From: Escherichia virus TH41
Sequence record: MT446412.1
DNA: 64,000 nt
Strand: one strand, 5' to 3'
Part shown: positions 5,852 to 64,000 of the stretch, piece by piece
How the letters are laid out: every line of letters starts with the position of its first letter
Position numbering within the stretch: the stretch's first letter is position 1
Made by a program: the position numbers and the translations under genes
The notes under the pieces: generated by a model
The model's database searches: none
What the model was told of the DNA's origin: nothing
The model's input: only the letters and a program-made list of their open reading frames with translations

Positions 5852-8566
5852 ATGCAAGAATTTTATTTAACTATCGAACAAATCGGTGACAACCTACTCG
5901 AACGATATATTGACAAGAATGGTCATGAACGTGTTCGTGAAATCCCTTATGCTCCATGCTTGTTTATGCACGCCCGCGAAGACCAAGCTGCAAAGTATAC
6001 AGACATCTATAATAAAGGTTGTGTGAAAAAAGAATTCGATTCCATGCGTGATGCATCCCAGTGGATGAAGCGAATGAATGACATGGGTCTCGAAGCTATG
6101 GGTATGGACGACTTTAAACTCGCATACTTGTCCGACCGTTACCCACACGAAATCAAATATGATTCAAGTAAAATCCGTGTTGCTAACTTCGATATCGAGG
6201 TGACATCTCCTGATGGGTTCCCTGAACCGTCTGAAGCACGTCACCCTATTGACGCCCTGACGCACTATGATTCGGTAGACGATAAATTCTATGTCTTTGA
6301 CCTTTTGGGCTCACCATACGCCACTGTGGAGCAATGGTCTATTGATATTGCTGCTAAGCTGCAGGAAGACGGTGGTGATGAAGTCCCGGAAGAAATCCTG
6401 GAAAAAATTGTTTATATGGCTTTCGATTCAGAAGAAGAAATGCTCCAGCAGTATTTGGTATTCTGGAACGAGAAAACTCCGGTTATGTTAACTGGTTGGA
6501 ACATCGAGAAGTTTGATATTCCATATATCTACAACCGCCTTAAAAATGTATTTGGTGAAGCTACAGCAAAACGTCTGAGCCCACATCGTCGTACAAAAGT
6601 TAAGGTCATTAACAACGGCTTTGGCGAAGAACAAGAAATCATTCAGATTCTGGGTATCTCTGTTCTGGATTATCTGGACCTGTATAAAAAGTTCAGCTTC
6701 ACAAACCAACCGTCTTATTCGTTGGATTATGTTGCGGAATCTGAACTGGGTGTTGGTAAACTCCCGTATGATGGCCCGATTTCTAAACTGCGCGAATCAA
6801 ATCACCAGCGGTATATTTCTTATAACATCATCGACGTTTATCGTGTTGTGCAGATTGACCGTAAGCGACAGTTTATTAACCTGAGTCAGTCAATGGGTTA
6901 TTACGCAAAAATGCAGATTCAGTCTGTATTCAGCCCAATCAAAACTTGGGATGCGATTATCTTTAACAGCTTGAAGACTCAAAACAAAGTTATTCCGGAA
7001 ACCAAATCGCATGTTCGCCAATCGTTCCCTGGTGCATTTGTTAAGGAACCTATTCCGAACGCATACAAATATGTAATGAGCTGTGACTTAACATCTCTGT
7101 ATCCGAGCATCATCCGACAGATTAACATCAGTCCAGAAACGATTGCCGGGTCATTTGCGCCAGCCCAGATGTATGAATACATCGCAGGAACTGCTGACCG
7201 TCCATCTGATACATTTAGTTGTGCTCCAAATGGTATGATGTATTTTAAAGATGTTGCGGGTATTATTCCGACAGAAGTCACCAAGGTGTTTAATCAGCGT
7301 AAAGAGCACAAAGGCTATATGCTTGCGGCTCAACGTAATGGTGAACTGATTAAGGAAGCTCTGCGTAATCCAGGAACTGGCACAACCGAACCAGAAGTTG
7401 ATTATCGTCATGACTTTGATGACAATATGAAAACGGCCCTGCATGGTCTGAATCAAACAGTCCTAAATGGTATGCTGTACAAAGCGCAGATGGAAGAAGT
7501 TGCAGGCATGACCGCACAGATTAACCGTAAACTGCTTATCAACAGTTGTTATGGCGCTCTGGGTAATATCTGGTTCCGTTACTTTGACCTGCGAAATGCA
7601 ACCGCGATTACATCTTTCGGACAACTTGCACTGCAGTGGATTGAGCGTAAAGTTAACGAATACTTCGATAGTGTTTGTGGTACAAGCGGTGAAACTTATG
7701 TGTTCTATGGCGATACTGACTCCATTTATATCCAGTGCGATAACCTGATTAAAAAGGTTGGTGGCGAATCTAAATTCCGCGATACAAACCACCTGGTTGA
7801 CTTCATGGACAAGTTTGCGAAAGACCGTCTGGAACCGGCAATCGATAAAGCTTTCCGTGAGCTGGCTGAATACATGAACAACAAACAGCACCTTATGTTT
7901 ATGGACCGTGAGGCGATTGCATGTCCTCCGCTGGGTTCGAAGGGTGTGGGTGGATTCTGGACGGCGAAGAAGCGTTATGCGTTGAACGTGTACGATATGG
8001 AAGGCACACGTTATGCTGTTCCAAAATTGAAAATCATGGGTCTGGAAACTCAAAAGTCGAGTACTCCAAAGGCATGTCAGAAAGCTCTGAAAGAATGCAT
8101 CCGCCGTATGCTGCAAGAAGGTGAAGAATCTCTGCAGACATACTTCAAGGAATTCAATAAGGAATTTAATGAGCTTAACTACATGACCATCGCAGGGGTA
8201 TCATCGGTTAACAACATCCAGAAATATAATGAAGGTGGTTTCCCTGGATTTAAGTGCCCGGCTCATATCAAAGGTGTGCTTGCATATATGCGTGCAACTA
8301 AAGGTCTGAAGACTGTTCCGCAAATCATGGAAGGGGAAAAGGTGTATGTACTTCCTCTTAAAGTCGGCAACCCATTTGGTGAAACCGTGATTGCATGGCC
8401 ATCAGGGATTGAACTCCCGATTGAAATTCGTGACCAAGTCTTGCAGTGGATGGACTACAACACACTGTTCCAGAAGACTTTTGTCAAACCGTTAACAGGT
8501 TTCTCTGAAGCTGCAAAGGTTGATTACGAAAAGAAAGCAACTCTTTTTGATATGTTTGACTTTTAA
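5852..8566 (+). CDS. 43: DNA polymerase gp43 (family B)
   Basis: 904 aa; exonuclease and polymerase motifs (FDIE, YGDTDS); C-terminal clamp-binding tail TLFDMFDF. Confidence 0.95.
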   Translation: MQEFYLTIEQIGDNLLERYIDKNGHERVREIPYAPCLFMHAREDQAAKYTDIYNKGCVKKEFDSMRDASQWMKRMNDMGLEAMGMDDFKLAYLSDRYPHEIKYDSSKIRVANFDIEVTSPDGFPEPSEARHPIDALTHYDSVDDKFYVFDLLGSPYATVEQWSIDIAAKLQEDGGDEVPEEILEKIVYMAFDSEEEMLQQYLVFWNEKTPVMLTGWNIEKFDIPYIYNRLKNVFGEATAKRLSPHRRTKVKVINNGFGEEQEIIQILGISVLDYLDLYKKFSFTNQPSYSLDYVAESELGVGKLPYDGPISKLRESNHQRYISYNIIDVYRVVQIDRKRQFINLSQSMGYYAKMQIQSVFSPIKTWDAIIFNSLKTQNKVIPETKSHVRQSFPGAFVKEPIPNAYKYVMSCDLTSLYPSIIRQINISPETIAGSFAPAQMYEYIAGTADRPSDTFSCAPNGMMYFKDVAGIIPTEVTKVFNQRKEHKGYMLAAQRNGELIKEALRNPGTGTTEPEVDYRHDFDDNMKTALHGLNQTVLNGMLYKAQMEEVAGMTAQINRKLLINSCYGALGNIWFRYFDLRNATAITSFGQLALQWIERKVNEYFDSVCGTSGETYVFYGDTDSIYIQCDNLIKKVGGESKFRDTNHLVDFMDKFAKDRLEPAIDKAFRELAEYMNNKQHLMFMDREAIACPPLGSKGVGGFWTAKKRYALNVYDMEGTRYAVPKLKIMGLETQKSSTPKACQKALKECIRRMLQEGEESLQTYFKEFNKEFNELNYMTIAGVSSVNNIQKYNEGGFPGFKCPAHIKGVLAYMRATKGLKTVPQIMEGEKVYVLPLKVGNPFGETVIAWPSGIELPIEIRDQVLQWMDYNTLFQKTFVKPLTGFSEAAKVDYEKKATLFDMFDF

Positions 8567-8568
8567 GT

Positions 8569-8598
8569 GTTTACAACGGCAATGGATTGCCGTATGAT
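8569..8598 (+). promoter_or_regulatory. early promoter (cassette type) with spacer hairpin
   Basis: GTTTACA -35, 8-bp inverted repeat ACGGCAAT/ATTGCCGT in the spacer, TATGAT -10; leader CATCAACTGATGA before the imm ATG. Confidence 0.55.
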
Positions 8599-8635
8599 TA
8601 CCCCATCAACTGATGAATAACTTGAGGATATTAAA

Positions 8636-8878
8636 ATGGAAACATTAATTGCGGGTACTGTTGTTCTTGGTGCAGGTTCTTTCTTCCTGGCTGCACTGGC
8701 ATATTTTCTGCCGTGGATTATCGCGCTACTGCGTGGAACCAAAAGTAATTGCGGAATCTTCTTTGTTAACCTCCTGTTAGGTTGGACAATGGTCGGATGG
8801 TTTATTGCATTTATCTGGGCACTCGTTGCTGAACGTAAATCAAACGCACAAGTAATTATCATCAAGGAATCAAAATGA
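8636..8878 (+). CDS. imm: superinfection immunity membrane protein Imm-like
   Basis: 80 aa, two TM helices, YFLPWIIALLRG...LLGWT.VGWFIAFIWAL; T4 imm position downstream of 43. Confidence 0.55.
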   Translation: METLIAGTVVLGAGSFFLAALAYFLPWIIALLRGTKSNCGIFFVNLLLGWTMVGWFIAFIWALVAERKSNAQVIIIKESK

Positions 8879-9018
8879 AGATAATTACAATTATTGTATT
8901 GATTGCATTTTTTAGTATGTCAATCTATTGGGCAATAATGACTCCACATATGATTCCAACTTTAATTTTGGGTTGGGTATTTTTGGGGCTCCAAGCCCGC
9001 TATGAATGTTTTAATTAG
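8875..9018 (+). CDS. small hydrophobic protein (47 aa)
   Basis: ATGA overlap with imm stop; MKIITIIVLIAFF... single TM; below the ORF-track size cutoff. Confidence 0.3.
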   Translation: MKIITIIVLIAFFSMSIYWAIMTPHMIPTLILGWVFLGLQARYECFN

Positions 9019-9026
9019 GAAGCAAA

Positions 9027-9530
9027 ATGAAAAAGTTAGCTATCGCAGCTGTTATGCTGCTATCTGGTTGTGCTTACCAGGGTGATGTTGTTAATGCCAA
9101 CGAGATTGGTAAAGCGCGAATTGCTGCAGACCGTCAGGTGCATAATGGTTCCTTTGATTTCAAAGGTGGTACTGGACTTATCTACAAACGCGACAACAAT
9201 CAATGTGGAAACAACTGCGCGAAATATGCTCAACAAGAAATTGAGTACAAACGCGAGCAAGCTGCGAAGCATGACGAAATCATTGCCAAGCTGGAAGCAG
9301 AAACCAAGCGACAAAATGACCTGGACACTGTTAACCAGATTTCACAGGTCTGCATGTCATACATCAATATGCAGATAAACATCATGCGCGCAGAAGCTTA
9401 TCAGGCAGCGGAGATGGGTTCTCCAAAAGCTAATGAGTACCGCGATATGTATCAGCGTTCTGCTCAAAACCGTCTGAGCTATATTAATAAATGTGTAGCT
9501 AAAGAGAAAGCACGCCAAGGTATTAACTGA
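9027..9530 (+). CDS. putative lipoprotein (167 aa)
   Basis: Signal peptide with lipobox LLSGC; coiled-coil-rich; occupies the slot between imm and uvsX. Confidence 0.6.
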   Translation: MKKLAIAAVMLLSGCAYQGDVVNANEIGKARIAADRQVHNGSFDFKGGTGLIYKRDNNQCGNNCAKYAQQEIEYKREQAAKHDEIIAKLEAETKRQNDLDTVNQISQVCMSYINMQINIMRAEAYQAAEMGSPKANEYRDMYQRSAQNRLSYINKCVAKEKARQGIN

Positions 9531-9637
9531 TGTTATTATTACTTCTGATTGTTGTAACAGTAATTGGTTTGCTGCTATTAGAAAAGCGTAATAAGCATTT
9601 GGCTGAAGAAAACTGGAAATGTGGTAACGTTTACTGA
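9530..9637 (+). CDS. tiny membrane peptide (35 aa)
   Basis: ATG overlaps lipoprotein stop; MLLLLLIVVTVIGLLLL...; speculative. Confidence 0.25.
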   Translation: MLLLLLIVVTVIGLLLLEKRNKHLAEENWKCGNVY

Positions 9638-9721
9638 GTTAATTGCTCTAAAAATACAGTGATATAATTATCCTATCTTAAACCTGTGAGAAAAATATAA
9701 TGGTGCCTATGGAAAAAATGA

Positions 9722-10900
9722 ATGTCTATTGCAGATTTGAAATCCCGTTTGATTAAAGCTTCTACATCCAAAATGACTGCGACTCTTACCAAGTCCAAGT
9801 TCTTTAATGATAAAGATGTAGTTCGTACAAAAATCCCGATGCTGAACATTGCAATCAGCGGTGCACTAGATGGTGGTATGCAGTCAGGTTTGACTATTTT
9901 TGCTGGTCCGTCAAAACACTTTAAATCCAATATGGGTTTAACGATGGTCTCTGCATATATGAACAAATACCCCGATGCAATCTGTTTGTTCTATGATTCA
10001 GAATTTGGTATCACAGAAGCATATCTTCGTGCAATGAAAGTTGACCCGGAACGTGTTATCCATACACCAATCCAGTCGGTTGAACAATTGAAAGTTGATA
10101 TGGTTAACCAGCTTGAAGCAATTGAGCGTGGTGAAAAAGTCATTATCTTTATTGACTCAATCGGTAACATGGCGTCGAAAAAAGAAACAGAAGATGCGAT
10201 GAACGAAAAAGTTGTTGGCGATATGACTCGTGCTAAATCCCTGAAATCTCTGTTCCGTATTGTTACCCCATATTTTAGTATCAAGGATATTCCTTGTGTC
10301 GCGGTTAACCATACAATTGAGACGATTGAGATGTACAGCAAAACCGTTATGACCGGTGGCACAGGTGTTATGTATTCCGCAGACACCGTATTCATTATCG
10401 GCAAACGCCAGATTAAAGAAACTGGTAAAGAACTTGAAGGCTTCCAATTTGTTCTGAACGCCGAAAAATCTCGTATGGTCAAAGAGAAAAGTAAATTCTT
10501 CATTGATGTAAAATTCGATGGGGGTATTGACCCGTATTCTGGCCTGCTTGATATGGCAATGGAAATCGGATTTGTGGTGAAACCAAAAGTTGGTTGGTAT
10601 AACCGTGAATATCTTGATGTTGAGACCGGCGAAATGGTCCGCGAAGAAAAATCATGGCGCGCAAAAGATACTAACTGCACCGAATTCTGGGGTCCGCTGT
10701 TCAAGCACGAACCTTTCCGTGATGCAATTAAACGCCATTACCAACTGGGTGCAATCGATAGCAATGCTGTTGTTGATGCTGAAGTTGATGCGCTTATTGC
10801 CTCCAAGGTTGAAAAATACTCTGCTCCTGAAGGTAAGACAAAACCGTCCGCTGCAGATATCGAAAACGATTTAGATATGATGGAAGACCTTGATGAATGA
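9722..10900 (+). CDS. uvsX: RecA-like recombinase UvsX
   Basis: 392 aa; Walker A GPSKHFKS; near-collinear match to T4 UvsX. Confidence 0.95.
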   Translation: MSIADLKSRLIKASTSKMTATLTKSKFFNDKDVVRTKIPMLNIAISGALDGGMQSGLTIFAGPSKHFKSNMGLTMVSAYMNKYPDAICLFYDSEFGITEAYLRAMKVDPERVIHTPIQSVEQLKVDMVNQLEAIERGEKVIIFIDSIGNMASKKETEDAMNEKVVGDMTRAKSLKSLFRIVTPYFSIKDIPCVAVNHTIETIEMYSKTVMTGGTGVMYSADTVFIIGKRQIKETGKELEGFQFVLNAEKSRMVKEKSKFFIDVKFDGGIDPYSGLLDMAMEIGFVVKPKVGWYNREYLDVETGEMVREEKSWRAKDTNCTEFWGPLFKHEPFRDAIKRHYQLGAIDSNAVVDAEVDALIASKVEKYSAPEGKTKPSAADIENDLDMMEDLDE

Positions 10901-17587: not shown

Positions 17588-18106
17588 ATGGCACATTTTA
17601 ACGAATGTTCTCAACTGATTGCTGGTGTTGATAAAGCTCAAGGCGCTTATGATAATGCAATTTTTGAAGGCACTGACCCACTGCAAATTATGCTTGATAT
17701 GCAGAAATCGTTGCAGGTTCGTCTGGCTAAAGAAAAACCAGAATATAACGAACATCCTGATAACCTGGCGACTGCTGGTGAAGTTGTTACCTGGCTCCGC
17801 AACCAGAAAGATTATATTGATGATGAATTCCGTGAACTGATTACTGCATTAGGTGGCATGTCCAATGGCGAGAAAGCTGCCTCGGCCGTATGGAAGCCTT
17901 GGAAAGCACAACATGGCGAAATGCAGCAAACCCTAATTAATGATTTATCTCCTGAAGACCAGCTCGAAATTAAATTTGAGATGATTGATATCCTGCACTT
18001 TGTTCTGAATATGTTCCATGGCCTTGGACTGACTGCAGAAGAAATCTTTAAATTGTATTACCTGAAAAATGCTGAGAACTTTGCTCGTCAAGACCGAGGT
18101 TATTAA
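17588..18106 (+). CDS. 56: dCTP pyrophosphatase gp56 (MazG-like)
   Basis: ATG at 17588; MAHFNEC N-terminus and later blocks match T4 gp56. Confidence 0.85.
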   Translation: MAHFNECSQLIAGVDKAQGAYDNAIFEGTDPLQIMLDMQKSLQVRLAKEKPEYNEHPDNLATAGEVVTWLRNQKDYIDDEFRELITALGGMSNGEKAASAVWKPWKAQHGEMQQTLINDLSPEDQLEIKFEMIDILHFVLNMFHGLGLTAEEIFKLYYLKNAENFARQDRGY

Positions 18107-34797: not shown

Positions 34798-35391
34798 ATG
34801 ATTCAGAAGAGTAAAACATGGGAGCATCTGAAAAAGATGCCCTCCTTTCTTTATACAAAGGAAGACTTAACCCCCGAATCCCTGCAAAAGATTGTAGATA
34901 CAGCCAGGTATTCATTGCGTAAAGACCCGGGTCAGGACCGTGAGCAAGTCATGCAAAGATGTATGGTGGCTACAATGGCTGAACAAGCTATTGCTAAATG
35001 GACTTCAGGTTTTTTATGTGGCGGTGATGAAGATTACGATAATCCTTATTCCTTTGCATTTGATGTAGTTTCGAAGGAAGGGGTAAGAATCGAAGTCAAG
35101 ACTCATCAGTCTGGTTCCAAATGGATATCCGTACATACTGGTCACCAGGGTGATTATCCACATGGTTACGGGGTTAATCTTGGCCCTTTTATGCAGCACA
35201 AGCTTGCTGACCTTATGATTATGTTTAATGTAAAAGAGACTCTCAAAGGTTATAGATTTAAACCAAAATTCCTTGCTGGGCCTGGTGCTTTCGTTCCTGA
35301 GTCTGGTCTTGTGCAGAAATCACAAGGGGATGGCTGGTACCTCCGTTCTTGTTCAGAAGAAAAATTTCCCTATCACCGGTTTACAAGCTGA
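34798..35391 (+). CDS. hypothetical protein with PD-(D/E)xK-like nuclease motif (about 197 aa)
   Basis: ORF 34714..35391 with ATG at 34798; FAFDVV...IEVKT resembles D...E-x-K; in the region where T4 has denB. Confidence 0.5.
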   Translation: MIQKSKTWEHLKKMPSFLYTKEDLTPESLQKIVDTARYSLRKDPGQDREQVMQRCMVATMAEQAIAKWTSGFLCGGDEDYDNPYSFAFDVVSKEGVRIEVKTHQSGSKWISVHTGHQGDYPHGYGVNLGPFMQHKLADLMIMFNVKETLKGYRFKPKFLAGPGAFVPESGLVQKSQGDGWYLRSCSEEKFPYHRFTS

Positions 35392-40844: not shown

Positions 40845-40851
40845 GGAAATT

Positions 40852-41184
40852 ATGAATAAGCTGAATATTGTTAATGAATTGCGTGCTTGTGTAGAACCCA
40901 CTCAAGAGGGTTGGGATGTTTGGTATCATGGCGCTTACCTTGGGACTATTGTCAAGGTCAAAGCTGGTCAGTATCTTATCCATCGCCAGGATGATGCAGT
41001 AGCTCCATTTGGTGCTCGCAAGAACTTCATGGCGGCGATTGGTGCCTTTGTTCCAGCAGCATATGAAGTCTATAAAGCTGACTATAAAGAATACCTGGAA
41101 TCACAACCAGTTATTCGCTCAATTGGTGTTAATAAAGCTCAACAGAAAAGTCTGTGGCAACGTGTTAAAGGTTGGTTCAAATGA
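40852..41184 (+). CDS. hypothetical protein (110 aa)
   Basis: ORF. Confidence 0.5.
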   Translation: MNKLNIVNELRACVEPTQEGWDVWYHGAYLGTIVKVKAGQYLIHRQDDAVAPFGARKNFMAAIGAFVPAAYEVYKADYKEYLESQPVIRSIGVNKAQQKSLWQRVKGWFK

Positions 41185-41519
41185 TTCCTATGGAACTAAA
41201 TTGGGATGGCGAAGGTCATTCCCTTAAATTGATTGAAGAACAACGTAACGCTTGGGATGAGCGCTGTGCCCTGGTGAATGGTATTAAGAAAACTTATCAA
41301 CTTAACCTCCAGATTGATAATGTTACTCTTGAATTTGGTATGCAGCTATTGCGATTTCTTGAGCTTATTTTTACGGAAAAAGTGAATATAACTTCGTATG
41401 GCGAAGGCAAAACAGTTGATATTAAATTATCATCCTATTATAAAGGTGATTTAATTGAAACCGCCGCTAAAATTCAAGAATTCGCTAAAGATAACGGTTA
41501 TAAGGTGATTTTCAAATGA
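41172..41519 (+). CDS. hypothetical protein (115 aa)
   Basis: ORF. Confidence 0.5.
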
Positions 41520-42127
41520 ATCCATTAAAAGGTAAAGCGTTATCCTTTAAAGACCGTATGGCCTTGTTAGATAAAGCTCTTTCTCGGGAGACTCCTGAAA
41601 GTCTCGCTGCTAAATTACATGCATACGGTGATTACACCGAATATAATGAAGAAGGTAATTGTGAAATGAATCCGTTTATCACTCGTTTAGAAATGTTACC
41701 AGCACCAGAATCGCGTGAAACCCCCAAAAGCCTCGCTGAAAAATTTAAAGCACATGGATACACATGCGATGAAAAAGATATTCTGGAAGAAGTCCCAGAA
41801 ATCTGTTGGCAGATTGCACATTGGAATAACAATGAAAAATATCAGCGACGGATTGTATGTGCCGCCAACCGATTTAAGTTAAAAGATGGTGGGACTCTGG
41901 TTATTCCTGGTGCCAGACATTATTCCAAGGATATGGCAGAAGTGCTTGACCAAGTAAGTGATAAACTTGTGTCAGACCATGTTTGTGGTGTTAATCAAGG
42001 ATTCATTGACCAGTACAGCAATTACTGGACCCGCGAAGAAGCAATGATTATTGCGACTTATGCAAATCAAGTGCGTATTGAACGTGGCGGTAGTGAAAAA
42101 GAACTTTATTCAGAGGACCTTTATTAA
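41516..42127 (+). CDS. hypothetical protein (203 aa) with internal tandem repeat
   Basis: [16 protein letters not shown] / [16 protein letters not shown] repeated N-terminally. Confidence 0.5.
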
Positions 42128-42405
42128 TGAACCTTAAACAACTCCAGATTGATGCAATCGAAACCCATATCAATCATATCAAACGTCTGAACACTATGAT
42201 GGAAGACAACTGGGGAACTTATGTTAACCAGCCGGCTTGGGATGCTTTAGACCATGAATATATAAAGGATATTAGTGATAACACGTATAGAGTTAGAGAA
42301 GGTCTGAAACCCTTCCTACGTGATATGTATATTGCAACTAATAAAGAAATTATCAGTTCTCTTGAATATCAATTAAGGAAATTGCATGAACAATCTGGTA
42401 GCTAA
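42127..42405 (+). CDS. hypothetical protein (92 aa)
   Basis: ORF. Confidence 0.5.
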   Translation: MNLKQLQIDAIETHINHIKRLNTMMEDNWGTYVNQPAWDALDHEYIKDISDNTYRVREGLKPFLRDMYIATNKEIISSLEYQLRKLHEQSGS

Positions 42406-42717
42406 GCACGATTTCAATAAGGCGTCTGTCCATAAGGACAAGAAGAAAACCAAAATGCAGTCCAAACGTAAGCAGAAGCACAAAGGGAATCATTATGAGC
42501 CATAACTTAGAGAACACCATCACCGGTCAACGTACGCACGAGCAGGCTTGCTTTGAGGAATTCCTTGGAGCTGATTTTAAGTTCCAGGAACCAGTTGAAC
42601 AGATGTATCAGGAATATGTTGTACAGATGGAAAATCATGTGTACAACCCAGAGGAATAATAGTATAATACCCTTACTGAATAATTGAATGTCTTATTGAA
42701 TACTTGAGTAAATTAAA

Positions 42718-42993
42718 ATGACTAAATTTGAAATCGTTTCTGAAATTGTTACTATAACTTCAATTTTGATTAAAACCGACCGGGAAGATATTACGATGAA
42801 GCGCGATGTGTTTATCGCGTTTTTGAATGAGTTGGGATTGAGAAATGAGAATGGGAATGAGTTAAACAATGTATCGTTTAACAAGTTGTTTAAAAGTTTA
42901 TCTGAAGATGAAATTGAACAAATTATTGAACAATTTAACGAAGGATTCGAAGATATACACCGTTATCTTATGATGTATACCTCCGGATTCTAA
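42718..42993 (+). CDS. asiA: anti-sigma-70 factor AsiA
   Basis: 91 aa; ITSILIK..REDI..FIAFLNE..QFNEGFEDIHRYLMMYT matches T4 AsiA. Confidence 0.85.
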   Translation: MTKFEIVSEIVTITSILIKTDREDITMKRDVFIAFLNELGLRNENGNELNNVSFNKLFKSLSEDEIEQIIEQFNEGFEDIHRYLMMYTSGF

Positions 42994-43643
42994 CGTGTAC
43001 GCCCAAGCGTACGACCTGCTTGTCCACACATAGAAGAAAGCCTATCAAAACCAAGGTCGGGTTTTTGCTTATACCAGTACAGTGAGACTGTGCCTGCATA
43101 AACGTTTTCCAAATTAAAGAATGGGCAGCTGAACATATATGTGAAGCTGCTTTTTTTCTTTGTTGGTAAGAATACAGATTCCACACTGGATTCAAAATAA
43201 TTACCATTAACCCCCGCCAAATATTCCGCTGAAGTCTTATCTATTGGAAACCCACCTAAATTTTTTTCGTCGACTGTATCAGGCAATATCCCCTCGTAAC
43301 CCACCATATCCACAAAGTAGTTAAGGTTAGTTGGCCTAAAAGAATATATTGCTGTAAAGTCTGCCCCACTTGACGAGTGGACTATCTGGATTTGCTCGAT
43401 AGCTGCAATTTTAAATCTGTTATCCTGGTCTTGCCTTATCATTTCAGTGTATGAGGCATATGAAGCATCCCTGTACGCATCTAAAAGTGCATCACCTTTA
43501 TACCAGATTACCGCCATTAAAAATAATAGAACAATAACTAGTACCCGGGAAAAAACAACTTTCCCGGTCGCATTATCTTTAAAAATTCTATCAAGAAGTC
43601 CAAAAAGTAGGTCGGGTATTGATATTCCTACTTTTGGTTCCAT
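42990..43643 (-). CDS. t: holin T
   Basis: 217 aa; LLFGLLDRIFKDNATGKV, single TM and large periplasmic domain blocks match T4 holin. Confidence 0.9.
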   Translation of the reverse strand: MEPKVGISIPDLLFGLLDRIFKDNATGKVVFSRVLVIVLLFLMAVIWYKGDALLDAYRDASYASYTEMIRQDQDNRFKIAAIEQIQIVHSSSGADFTAIYSFRPTNLNYFVDMVGYEGILPDTVDEKNLGGFPIDKTSAEYLAGVNGNYFESSVESVFLPTKKKSSFTYMFSCPFFNLENVYAGTVSLYWYKQKPDLGFDRLSSMCGQAGRTLGRTR

Positions 43644-43662
43644 ACTTTTCTCCTTTAAAGAT

Positions 43663-43670
43663 ATTTATAG
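43663..43670 (-). promoter_or_regulatory. late promoter TATAAATA for t
   Basis: TATTTATA on + strand, 20 nt upstream of the t start. Confidence 0.5.
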
Positions 43671-43680
43671 CGCTTATGTA

Positions 43681-44460
43681 CTATAACCATGAGCCGTAAA
43701 TTGTGCCTGTAGCACCCCATGATGGGGAGGAACCGAATACTGCTCTACCAGGAGCACCACCACCCGACCTGGATAAGTTATTACCCCATCCATTGCCACC
43801 AGCGCCTCCAGCATCACCGCCATTGCCACCGCCAAATTGGCTTGCATTACCACCGCCACCTGGACCATCATAACTAGCATTGCCGCCTGGCCAATTAACA
43901 CCACCGCCGCCGAGACCAAATGGTCTGCCGCCACCGCCACCTGCTGTAGCATTTGCAGGCCAACTATTCTGTAATGATGCGGCACCGCCGCCACCACCAC
44001 CGGAGGCTATCACACCATAATTCCAAATGCGAAGTCGTCCACCAATATCATTTTGGATTACGTCACCACCATTAGTGCCCGGGCTTCCATTTACTGTACC
44101 GTTGCCACCTCGGCCCCACATATGAACACCACCATGAATATTCAAAGTAACATATTCGTTAGGGGTATCACCGTACATAAAGAACAACGGAACATCTTTA
44201 GTATATGATACTAAGTTGCCTGTGATATTAAACACTATAGGAGCACCGCCGGCTTCAAAGCAACGGTCTCTAAACCATTGCCCGTTAAAGTTGTGGTCCG
44301 CACCAAGTGTGTGAATAATCTCACGGGACCGACCAGCAAATTGCGACATTGATACCGGTAGTCCCAATCTTAACTGTCCAGCCGCTGCAGACATCCATCG
44401 CTGGCCTGTTTCAGCCACTGCTGATGTTCCAATCCAACCAGGAATTCCTACTACTGCCAT
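43681..44460 (-). CDS. 38: long-tail-fibre tip adhesin gp38 (T2 type, glycine-rich)
   Basis: 259 aa; conserved N-terminus [15 protein letters not shown]...[19 protein letters not shown] and C-terminal polyglycine tracts. Confidence 0.8.
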
Positions 44461-44470
44461 AAAAACCTCC

Positions 44471-44486
44471 AGGGCCCGAAGGCCCT
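44471..44486 (-). other. TTCG-tetraloop hairpin between genes 37 and 38
   Basis: On - strand AGGGCC-TTCG-GGCCCT then GGAGG and TTTTT before the gp38 ATG. Confidence 0.4.
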
Positions 44487-44489
44487 TTC

Positions 44490-47400
44490 TTATAATAATG
44501 ATTTAATTAATGCTTTCAACTCAGCAATTTCAGATTTCAATTCCTTGATTTCGTCAGTATGCTCGTTGATAGTAGCAGTATTTAAACCGATAATACCGTT
44601 ATAGTTTAAACGAAGTAAGCCGGTCTCTTTATCTTCAGTCACAAGTTCAGGCAATACTTCTTGAACTTCCTGAGCAATTAAACCAGCAGACGGTTTAACT
44701 TCATCTGTGACAGAGTTTTTAAGCAGATAAGTATAACCGCCTAAGAGTTTAGATTTCTCTTGGGCATTTTCTATAAGCTTAATTTCTGACTTACAGCGAA
44801 TATCAGAACGGATATAAACGTCGTTAACATCGATGTTGTCACGAACATACATACCGGCGTTAACGTTTAGAAACTTATTTTGCTCGGTCGTAATACCGCC
44901 AGCTTCCCAGAAAAATACACTCTGCGCATTAGCATACGCGCCTAGACTACCATCACCTCTAGTAGCAAGACCTGTATCGTTATCGCCAATAGCAATAGAA
45001 GCATTTGGTAATGAACATGATGTACCAATGCCCATTCGAGACGCAGCATTCAAAGCATTAGGGGCGGTTAAGGTGCCGTCGGCGCCAAAAACGTATATCG
45101 CATTAGGATGGCTTGCATCGCCGCTTTCAGCAGAACCCACACGAATAACAGCAGAACCCCAGGTAGCCGCTCCACCTAATCGAATAATACCGAAGTCTGC
45201 TTTAGTAGAATATCCTTCAGTAGCTAGAGTGCTTTTTCCTTTGATAATTGGCATATAACTATCTTTAGGAACGGATTCACCAAAGTCAACGAAATAAGGA
45301 GCTTCTGTTTGCCATTGGTTTCCGTAACCATGACCTTGAGTATTAACCCATGCTCGACCGTTAACATACATGCGATAATAATTCATTTGCATTGCCAGAC
45401 CAGCACCAGAAAGGTCTACGTTGAATTCACCGTTATTGGTGATATACAGGCCACAGTTAGTAGCATAGCTGTAAAGGCCTATTCCATTATCGCTGCCACC
45501 TTTACCGACATACCAGTTGCCGGTACCATTTACATCAGAACGGATATGTGAACTATTACCTGTAGTTGTTCTTAATACTAAAGCATCACCAGGGGCTTCT
45601 ATTGTCAGCTTGCCTGTCATTGTATCGCCTTCTTTAGCAACACGAGTAGCAATGGCATCGCGAATATTAGTTACATCGCCTGCTGAAGTAAACGTTTTCC
45701 AAATATCGGACCAGATATTACCATTTCGGGCAATAGTAGCTTCACCACCACCAACCTGCACGTTATCGGGGAAGTTAACTGTACCATCGGCATTAAATCT
45801 TGAGGTATGACCTTCGGTCCCGTCTTCTTTAAGATGGTGTAAAACAAAAGTCCCGGAATTAATTTCAGTACCTAAAGACCAAACAGCTTTTCCTTGTAAG
45901 AATTTCTGCTTAACAATAGGATAATATTTACTTACTGCGGCATCATCAATTTCTTGGAAAATAGGAGCTGCTTGTGCATATTGAATATCGTAACCGCCTG
46001 CACCAGCCCCATGACCAACAAATTTAATATAGCCGTTTGCTGCGAACGTATTGTAACTTGATTGTAAATCTGGAATAGTAACTTTACCAGTATCTAAAGC
46101 CATACTAAATGGGCGAAGTGGACCGATATCACCGCCCTGTCCTTCACCAAACGCTGTAGGAATAATATGAAGACTTCCTTCTGAGCGACGGAAAATAGCA
46201 CCGTAATCGTCGTTCCAAATTCTAAGGGCATTAACAGCATTACCTGCAATTTCACCATGTGCGCTGATTGTACCATCAAATGTAGCATTTTTTACTACGG
46301 TCAGGTTTTCATTAACAATCTGGGAGCCATTTAGAACCGATTCGACTTTACCAGCAGTTGTTCGTTGAATATATTGCATCCAGCTAGTAGCATCAGATAT
46401 TTCCATTACGTTTTTGCGAGTACCGTCTACAGTGGTAAAAGTATCGCCCCAAACGCGTATATTCATATTATCGACAGAGCTTTGACCAGACGTATAGCTA
46501 CTAAACAGTAAGGTTGAAGCATTACTGCGGCCGTCGATATTAATTAAACCGCCAATCACATCGATATTACCCGGAGTAACCAACAAACCACCCGTGGTGT
46601 TAATGTTTGTAGTGCCTTTACCACGAAAATAGTGGTGATATGCTCCACCTTGATAATATCCTAAAAGAGTTTGTCCATCACCGAAGGCATTATTATCATG
46701 ATAAGTAACAACGGTACCAAGCGCATAGTTTTCTGTCGGCGGCGTAGTTAAATCGTTACCGTTTACAGAATAACCCATGACCATTTTTCTAAGGCTTACA
46801 GTTGATTCAGGGCTGTAAAGGAAAGTTCTCGTACCATTGTTTACTGCATAGAAATAACCATCTTGGTACCATTTTAACCCGGTGTCATTATCACCAAGAG
46901 CAATAGAACCCTTACCTAAGGCTGAATATGTCATAGGCCCTGATTCCATACCCACTGCAATCGAATGTCCAGCTTGAAAACCACCTGAATAAGCAAAAGA
47001 TAACATATAATCAGTAGGGGTTGAACCAGAATACCAACTGATACCGTTATTTTCACAAATTTCATGGAGCATTGCGGCGGCTGCATCAGTACGCACAACA
47101 CGTAAATTATTTTTATCTGTGTTAGAATTATTATTTGCTAATGAATAGATATCATAATCACCAGCTTTCTTACCATTTGTAATAACTTTATCAGTCAGAA
47201 TTTGTGGGGATGAAATAGATTTCCATGCTGATACTTCAGGTGAAGTAAATTGACCATTGCCTGAAAACGCGTAAGTGCTTTCGCTACCAGCGGCATAATC
47301 TTGCACTCGTATATTAACTACCTGAGTTGTCAAACCCGCATTGTTAGGAGAAAAGATAATACCGCGTTCGCGTGATGCACCATCAAAAAAACGAAGATGC

Positions 47401-58579: not shown

Positions 58580-60355
<1,776 letters not shown>

Positions 60356-60356
<1 letters not shown>

Positions 60357-63546: not shown

Positions 63547-64000
63547 ATGAGTACAGTTTTTAATACCACTCCAGTGGATGTTTTAGCCGAGCCGATGTTC
63601 TTCGGTTCTGGATTGGGGATTGCACGTTATGATATCCAGCGCCATAAAGTTTTCGAAGAATTAACAGAAAAGCAATTATCATTCTTCTGGCGACCTGAGG
63701 AAGTCAACCTGATGATGGATGGAGCTCAATTTAATAAGCTTCCTGAACATCAACAAAATATTTTTACCAACAACCTGAAATACCAATCACTTCTGGATAG
63801 TATCCAGGGTCGTGCTCCAGCTGCAGCATTAGCCGCATTAGTTTCTGACCCGAGTCTTGATACATGGATTCAGACCTGGACATTCAGCGAGACAATTCAC
63901 TCTCGTTCTTATACGCACATCATGCGAAATCTCTATACGGACCCGGCGAAGGTATTCGACGAAATCCTGTTAGATGATGCAATCATGAAGCGCGCAGAAT
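63547..64000 (+). CDS. nrdB: ribonucleotide reductase small subunit NrdB (5' part, runs off window)
   Basis: ATG at 63547 after GAGGAAA; frame open to window end; di-iron ligand block (FSETIHSRSYTH). Confidence 0.85.
   Translation, partial: MSTVFNTTPVDVLAEPMFFGSGLGIARYDIQRHKVFEELTEKQLSFFWRPEEVNLMMDGAQFNKLPEHQQNIFTNNLKYQSLLDSIQGRAPAAALAALVSDPSLDTWIQTWTFSETIHSRSYTHIMRNLYTDPAKVFDEILLDDAIMKRAE

What the first reader, a model, noticed from the sequence alone, without database searches (positions are those of the whole stretch)
8879..9721. The imm-uvsX slot holds a lipoprotein instead of dCMP hydroxymethylase and beta-glucosyltransferase
In T4, gene 42 and beta-gt lie between imm and uvsX. Here that interval encodes a 167-aa lipoprotein plus two tiny membrane ORFs, and no gene 42 homolog occurs anywhere in the window, while dCTPase gp56 and td are present. 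The phage may therefore use unmodified or differently modified cytosine, with the lipoprotein being lineage-specific envelope cargo.
Basis: partly seen in the sequence, partly recalled or inferred. Interest (0 to 1): 0.45.

Follow-up and report, generated by a model that had tools for sequence, protein, structure and literature searches.

The report
T4-like phage with repurposed thymidylate synthase
This T4-like phage has lost the usual cytosine-modifying genes beside uvsX, and its only thymidylate-synthase gene carries the single active-site change known to make such enzymes methylate dCMP, so its DNA probably contains 5-methylcytosine, which would answer a published open question about this genus.

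Summary
The window is a Gaprivervirus (about 99% identical to Escherichia phage UPEC01). Between imm and uvsX lie only a 47-aa membrane ORF, a 167-aa lipoprotein and a 35-aa membrane ORF. No gene 42 or glycosyltransferase homolog occurs in the window or in the UPEC01 record.

The lipoprotein is not a replacement and not lineage-specific. It belongs to phrog_1754, as do a T4-type lipoprotein beside imm and JS98 orf43, which sits in the same place upstream of a 4.6-kb cytosine-modification cluster. That cluster is simply absent here.

Unmodified cytosine is unlikely. dCTPase, DenB, DenA, Alc and dNMP kinase are intact, and published restriction data say VR7 DNA has modified, unglycosylated cytosines.

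The new point is that the "td" gene (window 59496-60356) is the only thymidylate-synthase homolog. It matches T4-type Td at 11 of 12 active-site residues and differs at Asn177, which is Asp, the substitution known to give a dCMP methylase. All four Gaprivervirus-type clusters carry Asp; 115 other T4-like Td proteins carry Asn. Acinetobacter phages 133 and ZZ1 independently carry Asp; RB49 keeps Asn.

Predicted base: 5-methylcytosine, untested. Lipoprotein function remains unknown.

The parts
5852..8566 (+). gene 43 DNA polymerase, left border of the slot
   Evidence: 904-aa ORF. Annotated as DNA polymerase in UPEC01, VR7 and JS98.
8636..8878 (+). imm, superinfection immunity membrane protein
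   Evidence: PF14373 at 1e-17. phrog_1039 at 1.9e-30. 51% identical to HY01 Imm.
8875..9018 (+). 47-aa small membrane ORF, annotated gp42.1-like in VR7; its start overlaps the imm stop (ATGA)
   Evidence: phrog_3610 at 7.6e-27. Homologs in JS98 orf44 (56%), Serratia phage CHI14 (57%) and an unannotated ORF between imm and gene 42 of T4-type HY01 (53%). Maximum Kyte-Doolittle 19-residue hydropathy 2.43.
9027..9530 (+). 167-aa predicted lipoprotein of family phrog_1754; function unknown
   Evidence: Lipobox LLSGC with Cys15 invariant. phrog_1754 at 4.7e-47. Homologs at 48-52% in Dhakavirus and about 30% in Karamvirus, Winklervirus, Erwinia and Edwardsiella phages. AF2 model mean pLDDT 66 with a confident C-terminal helical hairpin. 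No Foldseek PDB match below E = 1.
9530..9637 (+). 35-aa single-pass membrane micro-ORF, variable between Gaprivervirus isolates
   Evidence: Its start overlaps the lipoprotein stop. No PHROG match. VR7 carries a different 42-aa hydrophobic ORF at the same place, and SP18-type genomes lack about 100 nt here.
9638..9721 (+). conserved uvsX upstream region, the right junction of the missing cluster
   Evidence: Identical in VR7 and UPEC01. Window 9658-9900 aligns at 78% with JS98 DNA just upstream of and into uvsX. Contains TGATATAAT.
9722..10900 (+). uvsX recombinase, right border of the slot
   Evidence: PF21134 at 3.6e-39 and PF00154.
17588..18106 (+). gene 56 dCTPase/dUTPase, which removes dCTP from the pool
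   Evidence: 88% identical to JS98 gp56 over its full length. Pfam dUTPase_2. ORF coordinates.
34798..35391 (+). denB, endonuclease IV, dC-specific in T4
   Evidence: 48% identical to JS98 DenB over 156 aa. ORF coordinates.
58918..59499 (+). frd dihydrofolate reductase; its stop overlaps the td start
   Evidence: PF00186 at 2.5e-21. ORF coordinates.
59496..60356 (+). td homolog with Asp at the Asn177 position (Asp187, codon 60054-60056): predicted dCMP methyltransferase and the only thymidylate-synthase-family gene in the genome
   Evidence: PF00303 at 4.6e-91. Best solved structure is T4 thymidylate synthase 1TIS at 5.7e-128. Motif PFDIGSY against PFNIASY in the others. 11 of 12 active-site residues identical to T4-type Td. 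Only thymidylate-synthase-family hit in the six-frame search.

Best explanation
The imm-uvsX interval of this Gaprivervirus is a conserved early envelope module: Imm, a 47-aa membrane peptide, a phrog_1754 lipoprotein and a variable micro-ORF. The cytosine-modification cluster that relatives keep in this interval is absent (T4: gene 42 plus beta-gt; JS98 and RB69: a 5-hydroxy-dCMP synthase plus arabinosylation genes). The phage nevertheless keeps the machinery that excludes ordinary cytosine: gp56 dCTPase, DenB, DenA, Alc and gp1 dNMP kinase.

I propose that the missing step is supplied by the gene annotated td. This is a T4-type thymidylate synthase whose pyrimidine-specificity residue Asn177 (E. 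coli numbering) has become Asp. The residues that give a methyl rather than a hydroxymethyl or hydroxyl product, Leu143 and Asp169, are unchanged.

Proposed pathway: dCTP or dCDP is converted to dCMP by gp56. dCMP is converted to 5-methyl-dCMP by Td-Asp177 using CH2-THF, with Frd recycling the dihydrofolate. 5-methyl-dCMP is phosphorylated by gp1 and then by host NDK to 5-methyl-dCTP, which enters the DNA. The DNA would then carry 5-methylcytosine with no sugar. dTMP would come from host ThyA, from salvage, from residual dUMP activity of Td, or from deamination of 5-methyl-dCMP by Cd.

Shown here: the gene content, the single thymidylate-synthase homolog, the Asp substitution and how it is distributed among phages. 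Inferred: the enzyme's activity, the identity of the base, the source of dTMP and the role of the lipoprotein.

For the lipoprotein, my best guess at about 35% is superinfection exclusion or receptor masking acting with Imm. The basis is only its envelope location, translational coupling and conserved adjacency to imm.
For: Slot anatomy. DNA homology to JS98 runs through the end of gene 43, imm, the small ORF and the 5' part of the lipoprotein gene (68%). It resumes about 64 nt upstream of uvsX (78%). JS98 has 4.57 kb (orf42-orf38) where the window has 330 nt. None of those five JS98 proteins, nor T4-type gp42 or the HY01 glucosyltransferase, has a homolog in UPEC01 or the window.

Dependency genes. 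gp56 is 88% identical to the JS98 protein, DenA 77%, Cd 66%, DenB 48%, Alc 48% (PF17527 matched full length) and gp1 47% (PF21448 matched full length).

No alternative enzyme. Compared with JS98, every Gaprivervirus-specific ORF is under 200 aa except nrdD, nrdG and a homing endonuclease. The ten largest ORFs of unknown function show no methyltransferase or modifying domain.

The td gene. It is the sole thymidylate-synthase-family ORF. PMC13326640 lists 12 residues within 6 A of dUMP C5; 11 are identical to T4-type Td and only Asn177 differs, being Asp. The C-terminus is thymidylate-synthase-like.

Literature. N177D switches the enzyme to dCMP and yields 5-methyl-dCMP. Leu143 separates methyl from hydroxymethyl products. 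D169N marks 5-hydroxy-dCMP synthases (PMC13326640 and PMC8670742).

Comparative pattern. Asp occurs in the window and in all four Gaprivervirus-type clusters (86-99% identity), and in VR20, VR25 and VR26. Asn occurs in 115 of 115 other close T4-like Td proteins. The two other lineages that PMC8056088 lists as lacking known base-modifying enzymes while keeping DenB, Alc and dCTPase are Acinetobacter phages 133 and ZZ1. Both also have Asp with Leu143 and Asp169 retained. They form a separate clade, which implies at least two independent switches. RB49 has no alc or denB in the 50-kb stretch read here, and a paper states that Krischvirus DNA contains cytosine and no hmC (PMC6563267); it keeps Asn.

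Experiment. VR7 DNA 'has modified cytosines' and is unglycosylated. The assay used Dcm-sensitive and CpG-methylation-sensitive enzymes with and without T4 BGT, and the authors worded the VR7 result differently from the 'hydroxymethylated' T4147 control (PMC6326788 text and Suppl. Fig. S4).
Against: No enzyme assay or nucleoside analysis exists; the identity of the base is inferred from residue signatures.

I could not see the VR7 gels. 'Modified cytosines' would also fit hmC.

From memory, engineered N177D/N229D enzymes are catalytically weak.

The phage would have no dedicated thymidylate synthase.

Fully 5mC-substituted DNA should be a substrate for McrBC, McrA and Mrr, yet one Gaprivervirus record (vB_EcoM_RZ) lists an E. 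coli K-12 host. I did not identify an Arn-type inhibitor.

The UPEC01 record is labelled 'partial genome'. The absence of gp42 from phages 133 and ZZ1 rests on PMC8056088 plus a partial look at phage 133.

Confidence: 0.65

Rival explanations
1. The phage uses ordinary, unmodified cytosine, as RB49-type phages do. The retained dCTPase, DenB and Alc homologs would then have drifted to other roles.
For: No gp42 and no glycosyltransferase are present. Krischvirus shows that T4-like phages can live with C-DNA (PMC6563267).
Against: RB49 shows no alc or denB in the stretch read and keeps Asn177, whereas this genome keeps both intact together with gp56 and gp1. Restriction analysis of VR7 reports modified cytosines. 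PMC12115623 argues that this gene set is incompatible with replicating C-DNA.
Confidence: 0.05
2. Cytosine is modified by an unrecognised enzyme outside the thymidylate-synthase family, either pre- or post-replicatively. This is the 'unknown protein' proposed in the literature. The Asp177 in Td would then be incidental or would give only dual specificity.
For: PMC8056088 and PMC12115623 propose an unknown enzyme or base. Many ORFs in the genome have no assigned function.
Against: Compared with JS98 there is no Gaprivervirus-specific ORF large enough to be an enzyme, apart from nrdD/G and a homing endonuclease. No methyltransferase or modification domain appears in the largest unknown ORFs. This view does not explain why Asp177 recurs independently in exactly the three gp42-less, alc-positive, denB-positive lineages and in none of 115 gp42-bearing relatives.
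Confidence: 0.15
3. Td-Asp177 acts on dCMP but makes a product other than 5-methyl-dCMP, for example 5-hydroxymethyl-dCMP, giving unglycosylated hmC DNA like a T4 gt-minus mutant.
For: 'Modified, unglycosylated cytosines' would fit hmC. Asp177 is shared with gp42.
Against: Leu143 is retained, whereas hydroxymethylases have Asp or Glu there. Asp169 is retained, whereas 5-hydroxy-dCMP synthases have Asn. The thymidylate-synthase C-terminus and the coupled frd gene are retained, consistent with reductive methylation. The VR7 authors called T4147 'hydroxymethylated' but VR7 only 'modified', although they used T4 BGT.
Confidence: 0.1
4. The lipoprotein and the micro-ORFs are lineage-specific cargo that displaced gene 42.
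For: A word-based protein search found only seven close clusters.
Against: tblastn and PHROG searches show that the family (phrog_1754) is present in Tequatrovirus-type HY01, Dhakavirus, Winklervirus and Karamvirus, always beside gene 43 or imm. In JS98 it coexists with the modification cluster.
Confidence: 0.03

Closest known systems
Engineered thymidylate synthase N177D (E. coli) / N229D (L. casei), described as a 'deoxycytidylate methylase'
   Same: The same single substitution at the pyrimidine-specificity residue in an otherwise complete thymidylate-synthase active site (11 of 12 residues identical to T4 Td). It is reported to switch preference to dCMP and to give 5-methyl-dCMP.
   Different: This is a natural enzyme fixed across a phage genus. 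It carries about 37 further clade-specific substitutions, for example A179G and A182G. Its activity has not been measured.
Xanthomonas phage XP12-type 5-methylcytosine DNA (dCMP methyltransferase plus 5-methyl-dCMP kinase); this comparison rests on my own knowledge and on reference 42 of PMC13326640
   Same: Pre-replicative replacement of dC by 5-methyl-dC through a thymidylate-synthase-family enzyme with Asp at position 177, followed by a phage monophosphate kinase. About 22 other viral thymidylate-synthase homologs in IMG/VR carry the same Leu143/Asp169/Asp177 signature.
   Different: Those enzymes are only 34-47% identical to this one. This enzyme branches inside the T4-like Td radiation at 64-70% identity to T4, JS98 and other T4-like Td proteins. 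It sits in a T4-type genome with gp56, gp1, alc, denB and denA.
T4 gene 42 dCMP hydroxymethylase with alpha- and beta-glucosyltransferases
   Same: The same overall logic and the same accessory genes: a dCTPase, a dNMP kinase, and nucleases and Alc directed against C-DNA. In T4 the slot between imm and uvsX holds gene 42.
   Different: No gp42 homolog and no glycosyltransferase. gp42 has Asp at position 143 and lacks the thymidylate-synthase C-terminus.
RB69/JS98-type 5-hydroxy-dCMP synthase plus arabinosylation cluster (PMC13326640)
   Same: It occupies exactly this slot in the sister genus Dhakavirus, directly downstream of the homologous lipoprotein.
   Different: The whole 4.6-kb cluster is absent here. 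JS98 orf39 has the D169N signature, whereas Td here keeps Asp169.
RB49 / Krischvirus (C-DNA T4-like phages)
   Same: Also lacks gene 42 and glucosyltransferases.
   Different: No alc or denB is annotated in the RB49 stretch read, and its Td keeps Asn177. A paper states that Krischvirus DNA contains cytosine and no hmC (PMC6563267).
T5 Llp and Cor-type phage lipoproteins that block receptors (functional analogy only; from my own knowledge)
   Same: An early-expressed, small, envelope-targeted phage lipoprotein, here adjacent to the superinfection-immunity gene imm.
   Different: No sequence or fold similarity was detected. The function is untested.

Membership tests
Thymidylate synthase superfamily (PF00303) | Full-length match to the family profile and fold | tested here: met
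   PF00303 at 4.6e-91, covering profile positions 1-266 of 266. T4 thymidylate synthase 1TIS at 5.7e-128.
Bona fide dUMP-specific thymidylate synthase (Td/ThyA) | Asn at E. coli position 177, which excludes dCMP | tested here: not met
   Asp187 (PFDIGSY), codon 60054-60056. 115 of 115 other close T4-like Td proteins have Asn.
dCMP methyltransferase (5-methyl-dCMP synthase) | Asp at position 177 | tested here: met
   Role of this residue: PMC13326640 and PMC8670742.
dCMP methyltransferase (5-methyl-dCMP synthase) | Bulky hydrophobic residue at position 143 (excludes water, giving a methyl product), plus catalytic Cys146 and Asp169 | tested here: met
   Leu143, Cys146 and Asp169 are retained.
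dCMP methyltransferase (5-methyl-dCMP synthase) | Demonstrated methylation of dCMP and 5mC in virion DNA | not testable with these tools
   The only indirect support is the report of 'modified cytosines', unglycosylated, in VR7 DNA (PMC6326788).
dCMP hydroxymethylase (T4 gp42) | A gp42 homolog, with Asp or Glu at position 143 | tested here: not met
   No tblastn or HMM hit. Td has Leu143.
5-hydroxy-dCMP synthase (RB69 gp48 / JS98 orf39 type) | D169N signature, or a homolog of orf39 | tested here: not met
   No orf39 homolog. Td keeps Asp169.
DNA glycosyltransferases of T-even and RB69-type phages | A homolog of the HY01 beta-glucosyl-HMC-alpha-glucosyltransferase or of JS98 orf42 or orf38 | tested here: not met
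   No hit below E = 0.06. T4 alpha-gt and T4 beta-gt themselves were not available as queries.
Imm superinfection immunity protein (PF14373) | Profile match | tested here: met
   1e-17. phrog_1039.
Bacterial-type lipoprotein | Signal peptide ending in a lipobox [LVI][ASTVI][GAS]C | tested here: met
   MKKLAIAAVMLLSG-C15. Positions 1-9 and 11-22, including the lipobox Leu12-Ser13-Gly14-Cys15, are invariant in all 8 aligned family members. Ala at +2 suggests outer-membrane sorting; that step is inference.
phrog_1754 (T4-like phage lipoprotein family, function unknown) | Profile match shared with the T4-type, JS98 and CHI14 proteins | tested here: met
   4.7e-47 here; 5e-44 for HY01_0042; 9e-52 for JS98 orf43; 6e-35 for CHI14.

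The most novel reading that the evidence does not exclude
Gaprivervirus, and independently Acinetobacter phages 133 and ZZ1, have rewired T4-type pyrimidine metabolism. A single Asn-to-Asp change turned the phage thymidylate synthase into the enzyme that makes the genome's cytosine substitute, 5-methyl-dC. This allowed loss of the whole gene 42 and glycosylation cluster. dTMP is then obtained downstream of the same methylase, through deamination of 5-methyl-dCMP by Cd. These would be the first T4-like phages with fully 5mC-substituted DNA.
Probability: 0.4. Interest if true: 0.8.

Novelty: new variant of a known kind. Interest (0 to 1): 0.65.

Why it matters
Two papers (2021 and 2025) flag Gaprivervirus as a puzzle. 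It has the T4 machinery that destroys cytosine-containing DNA, but no known enzyme to make a substitute base. For that reason the 2025 paper declines to give a phage-therapy recommendation for the genus.

The Asp177 Td gives a specific prediction that is cheap to test: 5-methylcytosine made by a repurposed thymidylate synthase. The prediction also covers two Acinetobacter phage lineages.

If it holds, it shows how a one-residue change in a housekeeping enzyme can replace a multi-gene hypermodification cluster. It predicts the sensitivity of these phages to defences: BREX, Type IV enzymes such as McrBC, and 5mC-sensitive Type II enzymes. It matters for sequencing, cloning and therapeutic use of a common group of coliphages. 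It also corrects the routine annotation of this gene as 'thymidylate synthase'.

Tried and rejected
1. Lipoprotein function. The Pfam hits (FerB 0.013; DUF553 0.018) are below the family cut-offs and were rejected. The AF2 model was only partly confident, and Foldseek against the PDB gave nothing below E = 1. No function could be assigned.

2. The word-based homolog search suggested that the lipoprotein is restricted to a narrow clade. tblastn and PHROGs overturned this.

3. A hunt for a Gaprivervirus-specific modifying enzyme, by comparing every UPEC01 ORF with the JS98 genome, found only small ORFs, nrdD/G and a homing endonuclease. Pfam on ten large unknown ORFs found no methyltransferase.

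4. I looked for a remnant of the deleted cluster in the 35-aa ORF and found none.

5. One literature search was badly posed and was swamped by m5C RNA papers. The repeat search found no paper linking Gaprivervirus to 5-methylcytosine.

6. The T4 endonuclease IV paper says nothing about 5-methyl-dC substrates.

7. The Arch Virol papers describing VR7 are not held in the library.

8. The promoter and terminator scan of the slot gave no more hits than expected by chance.
Full report
**Identity of the window**

The interval and its flanks are 99.9% identical to Escherichia phage UPEC01 (MW233709). They are 93-99% identical to SP18, VR7, VR20, VR26 and other members of the genus Gaprivervirus (Tevenvirinae). 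Window position 1 corresponds to UPEC01 28618 and position 64000 to 92722.

**The observation**

The ORF listing, Pfam and PHROGs give the following order:
- gp43, 5852-8566.
- Imm, 8636-8878 (PF14373, 1e-17).
- A 47-aa hydrophobic ORF, 8875-9018, whose start overlaps the imm stop (phrog_3610, 7.6e-27).
- A 167-aa ORF, 9027-9530, with the lipobox MKKLAIAAVMLLSG|C.
- A 35-aa hydrophobic ORF, 9530-9637, whose start overlaps the lipoprotein stop.
- UvsX, 9722-10900.

T4-type phage HY01 has dCMP hydroxymethylase and a glucosyltransferase between imm and uvsX. Neither protein has a tblastn hit in the window or in UPEC01. Nor do any of the five proteins that JS98 encodes in the slot. An HMM built from gp42 and JS98 orf39 finds nothing in any six-frame ORF (best E 0.75).

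**What the slot really is**

The lipoprotein is not a substitute for gene 42.
- tblastn finds homologs in 138 phage records. Dhakavirus proteins are 48-52% identical. Karamvirus, Winklervirus, Erwinia and Edwardsiella phage proteins are about 30% identical.
- In JS98 the order is 43 - imm - orf44 - orf43 (the lipoprotein homolog) - orf42 - orf41 - orf40 - orf39 - orf38 - uvsX.
- orf39 is a thymidylate-synthase homolog of the RB69 gp48 type. PMC13326640 shows that this type is a 5-hydroxy-dCMP synthase belonging to a cytosine-arabinosylation cluster that extends to the Dhakaviruses.
- At the DNA level, window 8560-9327 aligns with JS98 at 68% and window 9658-9900 at 78%. Between these blocks JS98 has 4.57 kb and the window has 330 nt.
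- The lipoprotein matches phrog_1754 (4.7e-47). So do a 126-aa lipoprotein of T4-type HY01 encoded between gene 43 and imm (5e-44), JS98 orf43 and the CHI14 protein.
- The 47-aa ORF also has homologs in JS98, in CHI14 and in an unannotated ORF between imm and gene 42 of HY01.
- Only the 35-aa ORF is variable. VR7 has a different 42-aa hydrophobic ORF at that position.

The slot is therefore a conserved, translationally coupled envelope module next to imm, from which the modification cluster is missing.

The lipoprotein's function is unknown. The AF2 model is confident only for a C-terminal helical hairpin, and Foldseek finds nothing. A role in superinfection exclusion alongside Imm is a guess based on context.

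**Is cytosine unmodified?**

This is unlikely. The genome keeps the following, measured against JS98:
- gp56 dCTPase, 88% identical.
- DenA, 77%.
- Cd, 66%.
- DenB, 48%.
- Full-length Alc, 48% (PF17527).
- gp1 dNMP kinase, 47% (PF21448).

The literature has already noted this paradox. [quoted passage not shown] There is also experimental evidence. Gordeeva et al. (PMC6326788) report that VR7 has modified cytosines in unglycosylated DNA. They used EcoRII, SalI, MboI and Csp6I with and without T4 BGT. They call the T4147 control 'hydroxymethylated' but VR7 only 'modified'.

**Search for the missing enzyme**

I compared every UPEC01 ORF with the complete JS98 genome. The only Gaprivervirus-specific ORFs are small ones, nrdD/nrdG and a homing endonuclease. 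The ten largest ORFs of unknown function have no methyltransferase or modification domain.

The td homolog (window 59496-60356) is 69% identical to JS98 Td and has T4 thymidylate synthase (1TIS) as its best solved relative (5.7e-128). But it reads [10 protein letters not shown] where the others read LGLPFNIASY.

This Asn is E. coli Asn177 (L. casei Asn229). PMC13326640 and PMC8670742 summarise that N177D switches preference from dUMP to dCMP and gives 5-methyl-dCMP. They also summarise that Leu143 correlates with methyl versus hydroxymethyl products, and that D169N marks 5-hydroxy-dCMP synthases.

PMC13326640 lists 12 residues within 6 A of dUMP C5. The window protein is identical to T4-type Td at 11 of them, including Leu143, Cys146 and Asp169, and differs only at position 177. 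gp42 and orf39 differ at several of these positions. A thymidylate-synthase-family HMM finds no second family member in the window or in UPEC01.

**Comparative tests**

- Among the 120 closest proteins in a 5.8-billion-protein database, all four Gaprivervirus-type clusters (86-99% identity) have Asp, and 115 of 115 other T4-like Td proteins have Asn.
- One further Asp-type protein, P0077 (67% identity), comes from an uncultured T4-like contig and shares many of the clade-specific residues.
- A pattern scan of IMG/VR recovered VR20, VR25 and VR26. It also recovered about 22 unrelated viral thymidylate-synthase homologs (34-47% identity) with the same Leu143/Asp169/Asp177 signature. This is the natural dCMP-methylase type.
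- The strongest test concerns the two other lineages that PMC8056088 lists as lacking base-modifying enzymes while keeping DenB, Alc and dCTPase: Acinetobacter phages 133 and ZZ1. Both also have Asp (GKPFDIASY and GMPFDIASY), with Leu143 and Asp169 retained.
- The two Acinetobacter proteins form a separate clade that is 51-52% identical to the Gaprivervirus protein. The Gaprivervirus protein is closer (69%) to JS98 Td, an Asn-type enterobacterial-phage protein. The switch therefore happened at least twice.
- The negative control RB49 shows no gene 42, alc or denB in the stretch read, and PMC6563267 states that Krischvirus DNA contains cytosine and no hmC. It keeps Asn.

**Mechanism proposed**

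1. gp56 hydrolyses dCTP and dCDP to dCMP.
2. Td-Asp177 methylates dCMP using CH2-THF. The frd gene is immediately upstream, with its stop overlapping the td start, and would recycle the dihydrofolate.
3. gp1 and host NDK convert the product to 5-methyl-dCTP, and gp43 incorporates it into DNA.
4. Alc, DenB and DenA act on host C-DNA.
5. No sugar is added.

dTMP would come from host ThyA, from salvage (tk is present), from residual dUMP activity of Td, or from Cd acting on 5-methyl-dCMP.

The gene content, the residue pattern and its distribution are shown here. The enzyme activity, the identity of the base and the dTMP route are inferred.

**Weaknesses**

- There is no biochemistry.
- I could not see the VR7 gels.
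- From memory, engineered N177D enzymes are weak.
- 5mC DNA should be a target for McrBC, McrA and Mrr, yet one Gaprivervirus record (vB_EcoM_RZ) lists an E. coli K-12 host.
- UPEC01 is deposited as a 'partial genome'.

**Novelty**

The absence of gene 42 in this genus is already published. The lipoprotein is an ordinary conserved T4-like gene of unknown function.

The link between Td Asn177Asp and the missing cytosine modification was not found in any paper of the searchable library. The same holds for its independent recurrence in the other 'orphan' T4-like lineages. The link is a new variant of a known kind: XP12-type 5mC DNA, and the engineered dCMP methylase.

It turns an explicitly stated open question into a one-experiment test. 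I set interest at 0.65 and confidence in the 5mC/Td mechanism at 0.65.

Noticed in passing
L042:28517-29464 (-) and L043:18347-19279 (-): The Td proteins of Acinetobacter phages 133 and ZZ1 also carry Asp at the Asn177 position, with Leu143 and Asp169 retained. These are the other two T4-like lineages reported to lack any known cytosine-modifying enzyme while keeping alc, denB and dCTPase. They form a clade separate from the Gaprivervirus Td.
   Followed up: partly
L014:3953-4831 (protein P0077): An uncultured T4-like contig (Logan SRR24146912, 5.4 kb, with an frd.2 - frd - td context) encodes a Td that is 67% identical to the window's, also with Asp177, and shares many Gaprivervirus-specific residues. 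Its closest GenBank relatives are Gaprivervirus Td proteins at only 67.5%, so it represents an unsampled sister lineage.
   Followed up: partly
loci L015, L017-L019, L021-L024, L026-L030, L032-L035, L037-L041 (IMG/VR): About 22 viral contigs of 5-57 kb encode thymidylate-synthase homologs (34-47% identical to the window's Td) with the complete thymidylate-synthase catalytic set plus Asp177, Leu143 and Asp169. They are candidate natural dCMP methyltransferases in other phage groups. L016 and L025 are chance matches to the pattern.
   Followed up: partly
L003:45089-45322 (UPEC01 95089-95322; outside the window): A 77-aa ORF immediately upstream of the full-length alc gene matches the N-terminal third of the Alc family (PF17527, 7e-11). 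It looks like a partial tandem duplication of alc.
   Followed up: no
L007:3505-3745 (VR7): VR7 has an unannotated 42-aa hydrophobic ORF (MIGMLLISLWLLSAFGIGFMYWWDKRQTRKIVERAINRGFNR) where the window has its 35-aa ORF. SP18-type genomes are about 100 nt shorter here. This is a small hypervariable membrane-peptide locus between the lipoprotein gene and uvsX.
   Followed up: partly
L002:3271-3420 (HY01, T4-type): An unannotated 49-aa ORF between imm and gene 42 is homologous to the window's 47-aa ORF, with a conserved C-terminal KYEC(I/F)N. This small membrane protein is therefore conserved across Tequatrovirus, Dhakavirus, Gaprivervirus and Winklervirus.
   Followed up: partly
window 40848-47142: Identity to UPEC01 drops from 97-99% to 84-91%, with unaligned gaps around 44619-45612 and 46251-47141. 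By position in UPEC01 this covers the region from motA to the distal tail-fibre genes, so the window is a mosaic relative to its closest sequenced relative.
   Followed up: no
L001:20515-22799 (UPEC01; outside the window): The anaerobic ribonucleotide reductase genes nrdD and nrdG are present in Gaprivervirus but give no tblastn hit in the JS98 genome.
   Followed up: no
window 59496-60356, alignment: Besides Asn177Asp, the Gaprivervirus Td clade has about 37 positions fixed to residues that never occur in 115 other T4-like Td proteins. Examples are A179G and A182G next to the specificity residue, and W52Y and C55V. This is consistent with adaptation after the switch.
   Followed up: partly
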